DNA of 64,000 bases, taken from the NCBI RefSeq assembly GCF_013167455.1, contig NZ_CP038328.1. The stretch is one strand, 5' to 3'. This document shows, one piece after another, positions 28,101 to 31,100 of this stretch. The DNA comes from Escherichia coli O157:H7 (GTDB lineage Bacteria; Pseudomonadota; Gammaproteobacteria; Enterobacterales; Enterobacteriaceae). The position numbers are program-made. Positions within the stretch are counted from its first letter, which is position 1, and every line of letters begins with the position of its first letter.

Positions 28101-31100
28101 TGTAAATCCTGCGTGGTGGCCTGTCCGTTTGGTACGATGCAAATCGTCCTGACACCCGTCGCAGCGGGCAAAGTTAAAGCCACGGCGCATAAATGCGACC
28201 TTTGTGCAGGGCGCGAAAACGGTCCTGCCTGTGTCGAGAATTGCCCGGCGGACGCGCTGCAGCTGGTCACTGACGCCGCACTCTCAGGCATGGCGAAATC
28301 CCGCCGCTTGCGTACCGCACGTCAGGAACATCAACCGTGGCATGCCAGTACCGCTGCACAAGAAATGCCGGTAATGAGTAAAGTCGAACAAATGCAGGCA
28401 ACGCCCGCGCGTGGCGAGCCGGATAAACTGGCGATTGAAGCGCGCAAAACCGGTTTTGATGAAATTTATCTGCCATTCCGTGCCGATCAGGCACAACGGG
28501 AAGCCTCGCGCTGCCTTAAATGCGGCGAGCACAGCGTTTGTGAATGGACCTGCCCGCTGCATAACCATATACCGCAGTGGATTGAACTGGTGAAAGCCGG
28601 AAACATCGACGCCGCCGTCGAGCTTTCTCACCTGACCAACACCCTGCCGGAAATTACCGGACGCGTTTGTCCGCAAGACCGTTTGTGTGAAGGTGCCTGT
28701 ACTATTCGCGATGAGCACGGTGCGGTAACTATCGGCAACATTGAACGCTACATTTCAGATCAGGCGTTGGCGAAAGGTTGGCGTCCTGACTTAAGCCATG
28801 TCACCAAAGTGGACAAGCGGGTGGCGATTATCGGTGCAGGTCCGGCAGGGCTGGCCTGTGCGGATGTTCTGATCCGCAATGGCGTGGCGGTGACGGTGTA
28901 CGATCGCCATCCAGAAATCGGTGGCTTGCTCACTTTCGGCATTCCTTCTTTCAAACTGGATAAATCCCTGCTGGCACGTCGTCGGGAAATCTTCAGCGCG
29001 ATGGGGATTCACTTCGAACTCAATTGTGAAGTGGGTAAAGATGTCTCTTTGGATTCGCTTTTGGAACAATACGACGCGGTCTTCGTTGGCGTAGGCACTT
29101 ACCGTTCCATGAAAGCGGGTTTACCCAATGAAGATGCGCCGGGCGTTTATGACGCGCTGCCGTTCCTCATCGCCAACACTAAACAGGTGATGGGGCTCGA
29201 AGAGCTACCGGAAGAGCCGTTTATCAATACCGCCGGACTTAACGTCGTGGTACTGGGCGGCGGCGACACCGCGATGGACTGTGTGCGTACTGCGCTGCGC
29301 CACGGCGCGAGTAACGTCACCTGCGCTTATCGTCGTGATGAAGCTAACATGCCAGGCTCGAAGAAAGAGGTGAAGAACGCCCGCGAAGAGGGGGCCAACT
29401 TCGAATTTAACGTCCAGCCGGTGGCGCTTGAGCTGAATGAACAAGGTCACGTCTGCGGGATTCGTTTCCTGCGCACGCGTCTTGGCGAGCCGGATGCCCA
29501 GGGGCGTCGGCGTCCAGTGCCGGTGGAAGGCAGTGAATTTGTCATGCCAGCCGACGCGGTGATTATGGCGTTTGGCTTCAATCCGCACGGGATGCCGTGG
29601 CTGGAGTCGCACGGTGTAACGGTAGACAAATGGGGCCGCATCATCGCGGATGTGGAAAGCCAGTACCGTTACCAGACCACCAATCCGAAAATCTTCGCCG
29701 GTGGCGACGCCGTGCGTGGTGCGGATCTGGTGGTTACCGCAATGGCAGAAGGACGTCATGCGGCACAGGGGATTATTGACTGGCTGGGGGTAAAATCAGT
29801 CAAATCTCACTGATAGCCTGCGCAGACAAACCCGACTTCACAGCGTAATATAATTGTTCATTTCGCGCTGTGGAGTCGGTATGACGCAACAAATCACCCT
29901 CATTAAAGACAAAATTCTCTCCGATAACTATTTCACCCTGCACAACATTACTTACGATCTCACGCGCAAAGATGGCGAAGTTATCCGCCATAAACGTGAA
30001 GTTTACGATCGCGGTAATGGTGCGACGATCCTCCTGTACAACGCGAAGAAAAAGACCGTGGTTCTGATTCGTCAGTTCCGTGTCGCTACCTGGGTTAATG
30101 GCAATGAAAGCGGGCAGCTGATTGAAACCTGCGCCGGGCTGCTGGATAACGACGAACCGGAAGTGTGCATTCGCAAAGAAGCGATTGAAGAGACGGGCTA
30201 TGAAGTGGGCGAAGTGCGCAAATTATTTGAACTGTATATGTCGCCAGGCGGTGTGACTGAGCTAATCCACTTTTTTATCGCCGAATACAGTGACAATCAG
30301 CGCGCTAACGCCGGTGGCGGTGTCGAAGATGAAGATATTGAAGTGCTCGAGCTGCCGTTCAGCCAGGCGCTGGAGATGATCAAAACCGGCGAGATACGTG
30401 ACGGTAAGACGGTGTTATTGCTTAACTATTTGCAAATGTCACATTTAATAGACTGAAAAATAACAATAATATTTCGTTGTTTATTCTTGGCTCAATCCGA
30501 CAAATCCGATTGAGCCGCGCTACCTGCGCAACGAAGATACGACTTGTGCTGTTTGTTTGAACTTCTGGGGTCGTACCGTCCATGCGCTATCGCATTTTCC
30601 TTCTCTTTTTTTTCGCTTTGTTGCCGACGTCTTTGGTGTGGGCGGCACCAGCGCAACGGGCGTTTTCCGACTGGCAGGTCACCTGTAATAACCAAAACTT
30701 CTGCGTGGCGCGTAATACGGGCGATCATAATGGACTGGTGATGACCCTGAGCCGCAGCGCCGGGGCGCATACCGATGCCGTTTTACGTATTGAGCGCGGC
30801 GGGTTGAAGTCGCCGGATGCGTCTGAAGGGGAAATTGCGCCACGGCTGCTGTTAGATGGCGAGCCGTTGGCGTTAAGTGGTGACAAGTGGCGGATTTCAC
30901 CATGGTTATTAGTAACCGATGATACGGCAACCATCACCGCGTTTTTGCAGATGATTCAGGAAGGGAAGGCGATCACCTTACGCGACGGCAATCAGACCAT
31001 TTCTCTGAGTGACTTAAAAGCGGCGTTGTTGTTTATTGATGCTCAGCAAAAGCGCGTTGGCAGTGAAACCGCGTGGATCAAGAAAGGGGACGAACCGCCG

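What the first reader, a model, noticed from the sequence alone, without database searches (positions are those of the whole stretch)
30490..30517. 9-bp perfect stem-loop in the nudK-ypfG spacer
ggctcaatc-cgacaaatcc-gattgagcc lies ~35 nt after the nudK stop in a 125-bp spacer; no U-tract follows. It may mark the 3' end of the aegA-nudK unit or be a protein-binding palindrome upstream of ypfG.
Basis: seen in the sequence. Interest (0 to 1): 0.12.

Follow-up and report, generated by a model that had tools for sequence, protein, structure and literature searches.

The report
Rcs-type promoter of ypfG, not terminator
The stem-loop is real, but only E. coli and its closest relatives have it; the conserved part is the promoter of the next gene, ypfG, with an upstream box that looks like a binding site for the envelope-stress regulator RcsB, so it is an ordinary regulatory region.

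Summary
The inverted repeat exists, one base left of the stated coordinates: GGCTCAATC / cgacaaatcc / GATTGAGCC at 30489-30516. It lies 32 nt after the nudK stop in a 125-bp spacer, and no T-run follows. A perfect 9-bp stem is not beyond chance in 64 kb.

In about 77 Enterobacteriaceae loci the 5' arm is not conserved and pairing shows no covariation. The loop plus 3' arm, ATCCGAyAAATCyGATTGAG, is almost invariant. It sits 63-72 nt before the ypfG ATG, whatever its distance from nudK.

A second conserved block, GAAGATAC, follows exactly 17 nt after TTGAGN. A published K-12 TSS maps to G30546. This gives a -35 of TTGAGC (inside the 3' arm), a -10 of GAAGAT, and a 14-bp box, TCCGACAAATCCGA, at -50..-37.

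The box matches the RcsB consensus TN(G/A)GAN4TC(T/C)NA at 7 of 8 specified positions. It abuts the -35 exactly as the crystallised rprA RcsB box does.

Published transcriptomes show ypfG induced 38-44x by a LolCDE inhibitor, alongside known Rcs-regulated genes, and down 4.6x in an rcsB-disrupted O157:H7.

Verdict: a weak sigma-70 promoter, probably activated by RcsB. The hairpin is an Escherichia-specific outward extension of the box's dyad. A terminator role is not supported. RcsB binding is inferred, not shown.

The parts
30489..30516 (.). The inverted repeat of the finding: 9-bp perfect arms with a 10-nt loop. Its dyad centre is at 30502.5, the same as that of the box below.
   Evidence: The stable fold (-15.7 kcal/mol) is found only in Escherichia. 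No covariation.
30489..30495 (.). Outer part of the 5' arm (GGCTCAA). It is lineage-specific and is the mirror image of the -35 hexamer plus C.
   Evidence: the outer pairs are unpaired in 35-56 of 63 distinct orthologous sequences. Most genera have AATCTA or AAGCTA here.
30496..30509 (+). RcsB-box-like element TCCGACAAATCCGA, at -50..-37 from the mapped TSS (centre -43.5).
   Evidence: It matches TN(G/A)GAN4TC(T/C)NA (PMC7913699) at 7 of 8 specified positions. T1, G4, A5, T10, C11 and A14 are invariant, and position 12 varies only C/T, across 63 distinct sequences. Placement relative to the -35 is the same as for the rprA box.
30510..30515 (+). -35 hexamer TTGAGC of the ypfG promoter. It lies inside the 3' arm of the hairpin.
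   Evidence: TTGAG is invariant. There is a 17-nt spacer to the conserved -10 block in 69 of 72 loci and 18 nt in 3. It is at -36..-31 from the published TSS.
30533..30538 (+). -10 hexamer GAAGAT, part of the conserved block GAAGATAC.
   Evidence: Phylogenetic footprint in both the anchored alignment and the unbiased MAFFT alignment. It is at -13..-8 from the published TSS.
30546..30546 (+). Transcription start of ypfG (G), giving a 36-nt 5' UTR.
   Evidence: Kim et al. 2012, PMC3415461, supplementary file 2: NC_000913.2 position 2580835, minus strand, value 14, 5' UTR 36, with upstream sequence TCCGACAAATCCGATTGAGCCGCGCTACCTGCGCAACGAAGATACGACTTG.
30565..30584 (+). Conserved ribosome-binding region (GGGG at 30567-30570) and the ypfG start codon (30582-30584).
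   Evidence: Conserved block CyGGGGtTGTrCCgTyCATG.
30582..31625 (+). ypfG CDS. It encodes a DUF1176 protein with an N-terminal signal peptide and is the regulated gene.
   Evidence: PF06674, E = 7e-105.
29881..30456 (+). nudK CDS (GDP-mannose hydrolase), the upstream neighbour.
30466..30495 (-). Speculative divergent promoter on the minus strand: TTGAGC (30495-30490), 18 nt, TATTAT (30471-30466). It would share the same box and fire antisense into the nudK 3' end.
   Evidence: Consensus scan. Similar arrangements occur in Citrobacter (TTGGCC-17/18-TATAAA) and Salmonella (TTGGTC-17-TATATT). No TSS evidence was found.

Best explanation
The stem-loop overlaps the promoter of ypfG. A weak sigma-70 promoter starts transcription at G30546. 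Its elements are a -35 of TTGAGC at 30510-30515, a 17-bp spacer, and a -10 of GAAGAT at 30533-30538. A 14-bp pseudo-palindromic box, TCCGACAAATCCGA (30496-30509, centre -43.5), lies immediately upstream and touches the -35.

The most likely mechanism is that a phosphorylated RcsB dimer binds this box when the Rcs envelope-stress phosphorelay is on. It would then recruit or activate RNA polymerase from the position adjoining the -35, as at rprA. This would switch on the secreted DUF1176 protein YpfG.

The hairpin itself is a by-product. The box is already nearly self-complementary. In Escherichia the 7 bp to its left (GGCTCAA) happen to mirror the -35 side (TTGAGCC), which extends the dyad into a perfect 9-bp stem.

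Shown here or in cited data: the sequence, the conservation pattern, the fixed spacing, the TSS (published), and Rcs-linked expression (published). Inferred: RcsB binding to this box, and the mode of activation.
For: 1. Conservation. In 77 orthologous loci from about 25 genera, the 20-mer ATCCGAyAAATCyGATTGAG and the block GAAGATAC are the only strongly conserved intergenic blocks besides the RBS and start codon. This holds in the anchored alignment and in an unbiased MAFFT alignment.
2. Fixed spacing. The spacer from TTGAGN to the -10 block is 17 nt in 69 of 72 loci, and its sequence is not conserved.
3. Linkage to ypfG. The distance from the motif to the ypfG ATG is 63-72 nt in genomes and in 107 metagenome instances. 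The distance to the nudK stop ranges from overlapping it (Klebsiella, Raoultella) to 76 nt. Three loci that lack ypfG lack the motif or have it decayed; E. albertii carries a 9-bp deletion that collapses the box.
4. TSS. The published K-12 TSS corresponds to window 30546 (PMC3415461).
5. Box identity. The box fits the RcsB consensus of PMC7913699 at 7 of 8 specified positions. Every matching specified position is invariant or varies only as the consensus allows. The right half, AATCyGAT, equals that of the crystallised rprA box TGAGACGAATCTGA.
6. Architecture. rprA has the layout box | -35 hexamer | 17 bp | -10, and a bdm upstream match fits the same layout.
7. Expression. ypfG is induced 37.7x and 44.2x by a LolCDE inhibitor, together with osmB, bdm, wca genes, ivy and rcsA; the same table lists ycfJ and ypeC, which fall about 24-25x in the rcsB-disrupted strain (PMC5105897). 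It is down 4.58x in an rcsB-disrupted O157:H7 (PMC5343319). nudK is not reported as changed in either paper.
Against: - No direct RcsB binding data for this site were found (no ChIP, EMSA or footprint).
- The left half-site is TCYGA rather than TNRGA, so the element reads as a direct repeat of TCYGA at 9-bp spacing. Strict consensus searches would miss it, and a partner protein or another regulator could read that half.
- The loose consensus with one mismatch allowed is common: 22 matches in this window, and about 49 in shuffles.
- The Rcs dependence rests on two transcriptome tables and could be indirect.
- The published TSS has a low value (14) from non-inducing conditions.
- Several related lineages (Citrobacter freundii group, Kluyvera, one Enterobacter, Superficieibacter) also show partial extended palindromes. 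The arms may therefore not be wholly accidental.
Confidence: 0.72

Rival explanations
1. The hairpin acts in RNA at the 3' end of nudK transcripts. It could be a U-tract-less terminator, a Rho-termination-associated stabiliser, or a barrier to 3' exonucleases.
For: It lies 32 nt after the nudK stop, forms a stable stem (-15.7 kcal/mol), and would be present in any nudK read-through RNA. No other terminator-like site lies between nudK and ypfG. Partial hairpins recur in Citrobacter, Kluyvera and a few other genera.
Against: - No T-run follows.
- Pairing is not conserved: 63% of cells are paired, the covariation score is below all 500 shuffles, and the outer pairs are broken in 35-56 of 63 sequences.
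- Most genera fold at only -1 to -5 kcal/mol.
- The 3' arm is invariant as sequence, while the 5' arm drifts without compensation.
- The motif tracks ypfG, not nudK.
- No 3' end is listed there in the Term-seq table of PMC7815308 (weak evidence).
Confidence: 0.08
2. The conserved box is an operator for a regulator other than an RcsB homodimer. Candidates are RcsB paired with an auxiliary partner reading the non-consensus left half, or an unrelated factor recognising the direct repeat ATCYGAT-N2-ATCYGAT.
For: The left half is TCYGA in all genera and never the consensus TNRGA. Positions the RcsB consensus leaves free (C2, A8, A9, G13) are also nearly invariant. RcsB heteromers share only one half-site with the homodimer motif (PMC3950696).
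Against: The right half and the placement are identical to the crystallised rprA site. Co-induction is with RcsA-independent Rcs genes such as bdm and osmB. No alternative regulator's motif that I could recall fits, and recall is not a test.
Confidence: 0.15
3. The palindrome is a bidirectional promoter core. One activator dimer at the dyad would serve ypfG on the + strand and a divergent minus-strand promoter (TTGAGC-18-TATTAT, TSS near 30459). The second transcript would be antisense to the nudK 3' end. This is compatible with the best explanation.
For: The 5' arm is the exact mirror of the -35 hexamer. The promoter scan reports the minus-strand site. The box centre would be about 43.5 nt from both predicted starts. 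Comparable minus-strand -35/-10 pairs occur in Citrobacter and Salmonella.
Against: No antisense TSS was found in the data I could read. The arrangement is absent from most genera that keep the box. nudK is not reported as changed in the two Rcs-related transcriptomes. AT-rich spacers often yield promoter-like matches.
Confidence: 0.1

Closest known systems
RcsB box of the rprA promoter (RcsA-independent activation; crystallised with RcsB, PMC7913699)
   Same: Both are 14-bp pseudo-palindromes with a 4-bp centre. The right half AATCTGAT is identical in most ypfG orthologues. In both, the box directly abuts the -35 hexamer, followed by a 17-bp spacer and the -10. The rprA box is at -49..-36 and the ypfG box at -50..-37. 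Both promoters have poor core hexamers, and both genes respond to Rcs.
   Different: The ypfG left half is TCCGA, where rprA has TGAGA. This breaks the (G/A)GA rule at its first base. Binding of RcsB to the ypfG site has not been shown.
bdm and osmCp1 RcsB-dependent promoters
   Same: The bdm upstream region contains CAGGACTAATCTTA | ACAACG - 17 nt - CATGCT, which is the same box | -35 | 17 | -10 layout. bdm and ypfG are co-induced by the LolCDE inhibitor.
   Different: I did not retrieve the experimentally mapped bdm or osmC sites and starts. The layout is read from the sequence only.
flhDC P1 RcsB (RcsAB) box
   Same: It has the same consensus family (TAGGAAAAATCTTA).
   Different: It is a repressing site, placed differently from the position abutting the -35 seen here (position recalled, not checked), whereas the ypfG box is in an activating position.
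Intrinsic (Rho-independent) terminator
   Same: Both are stable stem-loops shortly after a stop codon.
   Different: This one has no U-tract, no conservation of pairing, and no mapped 3' end.
REP/BIME extragenic palindromes
   Same: Both are intergenic palindromes in E. coli.
   Different: This one is single copy per genome and has no REP consensus. A real REP-like element lies after ypfG at about 31665-31718.

Membership tests
RcsB box / RcsB-activated promoter | Left half-site TN(G/A)GA | tested here: inconclusive
   The sequence is TCCGA. T, G and A are met, but the R position is C (or T) in all 63 sequences. In total, 7 of 8 specified consensus positions are met.
RcsB box / RcsB-activated promoter | 4-bp centre followed by the right half-site TC(T/C)NA | tested here: met
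   The sequence is CAAA, then TCCGA. T, C and A are invariant, and the Y position varies only C/T across genera.
RcsB box / RcsB-activated promoter | Activating position immediately upstream of the -35, as at rprA | tested here: met
   The box is at -50..-37 from the published TSS and abuts TTGAGC. The rprA box is at -49..-36 and abuts TCGACG. Both have 17-bp spacers.
RcsB box / RcsB-activated promoter | Expression depends on Rcs/RcsB | tested here: met
   From the literature only. ypfG is up 37.7x and 44.2x with a LolCDE inhibitor, alongside known Rcs genes (PMC5105897). It is down 4.58x in rcsB-disrupted O157:H7 (PMC5343319). The effect could be indirect.
RcsB box / RcsB-activated promoter | Direct binding of RcsB to the site | not testable with these tools
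   No ChIP, EMSA or footprint data for this site were found.
Sigma-70 promoter | -35 and -10 hexamers at 16-18 bp spacing, with a TSS 6-8 nt after the -10 | tested here: met
   TTGAGC - 17 nt - GAAGAT, then 7 nt to G30546. The hexamers are conserved and the spacer is not. The hexamers are weak, matching the consensus at 4/6 and 3/6, although -10 positions A2 and T6 are kept. The tool's consensus scan did not call it.
Intrinsic terminator | G+C-rich stem followed by a U-tract | tested here: not met
   The stem is present, but the next bases are GCGCTACC. The terminator scan finds nothing here.
Intrinsic terminator | An RNA 3' end maps just after the stem | tested here: not met
   The 3'-end table of PMC7815308 has no entry there. 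This is weak evidence, because the table is thresholded and nudK is poorly expressed.
Conserved structured RNA or DNA hairpin | Pairing maintained across relatives, with compensatory changes | tested here: not met
   63% of cells are paired, covariation is below all shuffles, and 5 of 10 pairs depart only by unpaired cells. There is no Rfam family apart from a chance plant MIR171 hit at E = 2.7.
REP / dispersed repeat | Many copies per genome | tested here: not met
   There is one place per genome in 5425 E. coli genomes. The 20-mer occurs once in the window. Of 120 metagenome matches, 112 have ypfG downstream and 3 more at contig ends have nudK upstream; the other 5 lie in unrelated contigs, mostly low-GC.

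The most novel reading that the evidence does not exclude
In the Escherichia-Citrobacter-Salmonella clade the box may sit at the dyad of a bidirectional, Rcs-activated promoter pair. One arm would drive ypfG. The mirror-image arm (TTGAGC-18-TATTAT on the minus strand, start near 30459) would make an RNA antisense to the 3' end of nudK. NudK hydrolyses GDP-mannose, and from general knowledge Rcs turns on colanic-acid synthesis, which consumes GDP-mannose. An antisense RNA of this kind could therefore spare the precursor during capsule induction. This would also explain why the 5' arm mirrors the -35 so exactly in E. coli.
Probability: 0.08. Interest if true: 0.45.

Novelty: new member of a known kind. 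Interest (0 to 1): 0.18.

Why it matters
ypfG is an uncharacterised secreted DUF1176 protein and is among the genes most strongly induced when lipoprotein trafficking is blocked. The analysis identifies a deeply conserved promoter for it, with an RcsB-type box in the classical activating position. This gives a concrete, testable cis-element that could place ypfG in the direct Rcs regulon across Enterobacteriaceae.

It also shows that strict consensus searches would miss this site, because the R position of the left half is not met. For the genome scan, the lesson is that a conspicuous perfect hairpin can be the accidental self-complementarity of a dimer-binding operator plus its flank, not an RNA signal. 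Otherwise the feature is ordinary.

Tried and rejected
- **Rfam.** A scan of 29500-32000 at E up to 10 gave only a chance plant MIR171 hit on the hairpin (the 3' arm plus the next bases, GATTGAGCCGCGC, resembles miR171) and a sub-threshold naRNA4/REP hit after ypfG.
- **Terminator.** Rejected; see the membership test.
- **Upstream sigma-70 promoter.** I considered TTGTTT/TTTACA - 17 nt - ACAAAT/ATAAAT, with its -10 in the hairpin loop. I set it aside because the published TSS fits the downstream promoter, and because the region upstream of the box lies inside nudK coding sequence in Klebsiella.
- **Other sigma factors and regulators, from memory only.** I considered sigma-28 (the -10 GCCGATAA resembles TCCGATAA, but no matching -35), sigma-E, sigma-54, Fur, GlpR, HipB and LysR-type ATC-N9-GAT motifs. 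None fitted. These are not formal tests.
- **TSS and 3'-end supplements.** The Cappable-seq supplement gave no hit. The Conway 2014, Dornenburg 2010 and Huesa 2021 supplements are not held. The supplementary files held for Bury-Mone 2009 do not list ypfG. Thomason 2015 and Laubacher & Ades 2008 are not held. Kim 2012 TSSs for other Rcs genes (ycfJ, osmB, yaiY, ivy) are low-count, distant starts and were not informative.
- **Klebsiella TSS for KPN_02800.** Not found in the truncated supplement.
- **Dispersed 20-mer.** A metagenome scan tested whether the 20-mer is a dispersed element or marks other regulon members. It does not.
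Full report
**1. The observation**

The window is E. coli O157:H7-like. Positions 30380-30660 are 100% identical to NZ_AP018488, where RefSeq annotates aegA, nudK and ypfG on this strand. 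K-12 has the same order on its minus strand.

The inverted repeat is GGCTCAATC (30489-30497), cgacaaatcc, GATTGAGCC (30508-30516). This is one base left of the stated coordinates. Two further inner pairs leave a 4-nt loop, and the 40-nt context folds at -15.7 kcal/mol. The stem starts 32 nt after the nudK stop, inside a 125-bp spacer, and is followed by GCGCTACC, with no T-run.

A perfect 9-bp stem is not rare. The window has 8 distinct such hairpins (16 nested hits), and dinucleotide shuffles give 3.3 +/- 2.4 hits. The 50-mer around it is single copy in 5425 of 5426 complete E. coli genomes. No Rfam family matches; the only hit on the hairpin is a chance plant MIR171 hit at E = 2.7.

**2. What is conserved**

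I fetched 80 NudK loci from one genome per species. Of these, 77 have ypfG directly downstream.

The 5' arm of the hairpin is not conserved outside Escherichia. Most genera have AATCTA or AAGCTA where E. coli has GGCTCAA. In contrast, the loop plus 3' arm, ATCCGAyAAATCyGATTGAG, is nearly invariant in Citrobacter, Salmonella, Enterobacter, Klebsiella, Raoultella, Kosakonia, Leclercia, Buttiauxella and others.

I counted the E. coli hairpin on 63 distinct orthologous 36-mers:
- 63% of cells are paired.
- The covariation score is below all 500 shuffles.
- The outer pairs are broken in 35-56 of 63 sequences.
- The inner pairs are 'kept' only because the bases themselves never change.

Predicted stability is -15.7 kcal/mol in E. 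coli O157 (this window), E. whittamii and Escherichia sp. E1V33 (-11.8 in a fourth Escherichia genome). It is -7 to -13 in a few lineages with partial palindromes and -1 to -5 in most. The conserved object is therefore a sequence, not a structure.

**3. The conserved sequence belongs to ypfG**

- The distance from the end of the motif to the ypfG ATG is 63-72 nt in the genome loci and in 107 metagenome instances.
- The distance to the nudK stop varies from 76 nt to overlap. In Klebsiella and Raoultella the box includes the nudK stop codon (...GATATCTGATAAATCTGATTGAG).
- The two Pluralibacter loci without ypfG have no motif.
- In E. albertii, which has lost ypfG, a 9-bp deletion collapses the repeat and the flanking hexamers carry substitutions, while nudK is intact.
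- Of 120 exact metagenome matches to the 20-mer, 112 have ypfG downstream and 3 more at contig ends have nudK upstream. The other 5 lie in unrelated contigs, mostly low-GC, some apparently inside coding sequence.

**4. Promoter anatomy**

Both the anchored alignment and an unbiased MAFFT alignment of 71 distinct spacers show three footprints:
- the 20-mer;
- GAAGATAC;
- the RBS-to-start block CyGGGGtTGTrCCgTyCATG.

The 17 nt between TTGAGN and GAAGAT are not conserved in sequence, but the length is 17 in 69 of 72 loci and 18 in 3. This is the signature of -35 and -10 elements.

Kim et al. 2012 (PMC3415461, supplementary file 2) list a K-12 ypfG TSS at NC_000913.2 2580835, minus strand. The entry gives a 5' UTR of 36 nt and the upstream sequence TCCGACAAATCCGATTGAGCCGCGCTACCTGCGCAACGAAGATACGACTTG. 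This maps to G30546. It follows that:
- the -10 is GAAGAT, at 30533-30538;
- the -35 is TTGAGC, at 30510-30515, inside the 3' arm;
- the hairpin lies upstream of the start, so it is not part of the ypfG mRNA.

The same table gives nudK its own TSS, 23 nt before its ATG.

**5. The upstream box**

TCCGACAAATCCGA (30496-30509) lies at -50..-37, centred at -43.5, and touches the -35.

Huesa et al. 2021 (PMC7913699) define the RcsB homodimer box as TN(G/A)GAN4TC(T/C)NA. Their crystal structure contains the rprA site CCTATTGAGACGAATCTGATCGG, covering -33..-53.

In K-12, the rprA box TGAGACGAATCTGA is at -49..-36, followed by TCGACG, 17 nt, then TACTAT. The bdm upstream region reads CAGGACTAATCTTA | ACAACG, 17 nt, CATGCT. 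ypfG has the same layout.

The ypfG box meets 7 of 8 specified consensus positions. Across 63 sequences, T1, G4, A5, T10, C11 and A14 are invariant, and position 12 toggles only between C and T, as the consensus allows. The right half, AATCyGAT, is the rprA right half.

The exception is position 3, which is always C or T rather than a purine. The element therefore reads as a direct repeat TCYGA-N4-TCYGA. The loose consensus alone is not significant, with 22 matches at up to one mismatch in the window and about 49 in shuffles. The case rests on the combination of placement, conservation pattern and expression data.

**6. Expression data**

- ypfG is induced 37.7x and 44.2x by a LolCDE inhibitor. 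The same table lists osmB, bdm, wca genes, ivy, rcsA and yjbEF, plus ycfJ and ypeC, which fall about 24-25x in the rcsB-disrupted strain (PMC5105897).
- It is down 4.58x in an O157:H7 isolate with disrupted rcsB, together with ycfJ and ypeC (PMC5343319).
- It is among the few genes induced in both E. coli and Klebsiella recipients during RP4 conjugation (bioRxiv 10.1101/2025.06.12.659224).
- nudK is not reported as changed in either of the first two papers, consistent with an independent ypfG promoter.

I found no paper describing this promoter or an RcsB site at ypfG. I could not consult RegulonDB or EcoCyc.

**7. Why there is a hairpin**

The dyad of the hairpin (30502.5) coincides with the dyad of the box. 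The box is self-complementary except at positions 3/12, which is exactly the C.C mismatch in the stem. The perfect outer 7 bp arise because GGCTCAA, left of the box, mirrors TTGAGCC on the -35 side.

This mirror is specific to Escherichia. Partial versions occur in the Citrobacter freundii group (GGC-CAAT...ATTG-A-GCC), Kluyvera and a few others. I regard it as most likely incidental.

One consequence is a minus-strand promoter-like site, TTGAGC-18-TATTAT. Analogues exist in Citrobacter and Salmonella. This is the basis of the speculative bidirectional reading. I found no TSS evidence for it.

**8. The terminator reading**

This reading lacks a U-tract, lacks conservation of pairing, and has no listed 3' end. 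The Term-seq table of Adams et al. 2021 has no entry on that strand between 2560305 and 2597799. That absence is weak evidence, because neither the nudK nor the ypfG 3' end is listed at all.

**9. Verdict**

The best explanation is a weak sigma-70 promoter activated from a box adjoining the -35, most probably by RcsB~P. As far as I can tell, it is a previously undescribed but typical member of the RcsA-independent RcsB promoter class. Interest is low.

Noticed in passing
window 30466-30495, minus strand: Promoter-like site TTGAGC-18-TATTAT, mirror-symmetric to the ypfG promoter about the box. It would start an RNA antisense to the nudK 3' end near 30459. Similar -35/-10 pairs are present in Citrobacter and Salmonella.
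   Followed up: partly
window 30565-30587: The stretch from the Shine-Dalgarno (GGGG at 30567-30570) through the ypfG start codon, CyGGGGtTGTrCCgTyCATGCG, is conserved across genera far more than an ordinary RBS. It could be a site of post-transcriptional control.
   Followed up: no
window 30526-30543 and 30570-30587: An 18-nt inverted repeat, 78% complementary, pairs the -10/start region with the RBS/start codon of ypfG. Most of the left arm lies upstream of the TSS, so it could only form in nudK read-through RNA, where it would occlude the ypfG RBS.
   Followed up: no
window 30672-30689 (inside ypfG): TGGCAGGTCACCTGTAAT corresponds to the intragenic sigma-54 site reported by ChIP-chip in Salmonella ypfG (TGGCAGGTCACCTGCAAT; PMC3844500). 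In this window the -12 'GC' reads 'GT'.
   Followed up: partly
window 31665-31718: A REP-like palindromic element lies between the convergent ypfG and tktB genes. It gives a sub-threshold Rfam naRNA4 hit (38 bits against a gathering score of 59.5).
   Followed up: no
L006 (E. albertii) 3077-3165, compared with window 30457-30560: E. albertii has lost ypfG, with REP-like sequence following directly. It carries a 9-bp deletion that removes one repeat unit of the box, plus changes in both promoter hexamers. This is a natural decay of the element once its gene is gone.
   Followed up: yes
L026, L045, L050, L058, L062, L068, L071, L074, L075, L077, L079 (Klebsiella, Raoultella and related loci), around locus position 3070-3100: The conserved box overlaps the last codons and the stop codon of nudK (...GAT ATC TGA TAAATCyGATTGAG). 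The same bases therefore serve as coding sequence, stop codon and the operator-like box.
   Followed up: partly
window about 29858 (K-12 NC_000913.2 position 2581523): Kim et al. 2012 list a separate nudK TSS 23 nt upstream of its ATG, with a value of 161. nudK is therefore not only the distal gene of an aegA operon.
   Followed up: no
window 8386-8407, 16499-16525, 22614-22643, 34193-34214, 37279-37306, 51164-51189, 55793-55815: Seven other perfect stem-loops of at least 9 bp. The one at 22614-22643 (AAAAGGCGACA...TGTCGCCTTTT) has the look of a bidirectional intrinsic terminator.
   Followed up: no
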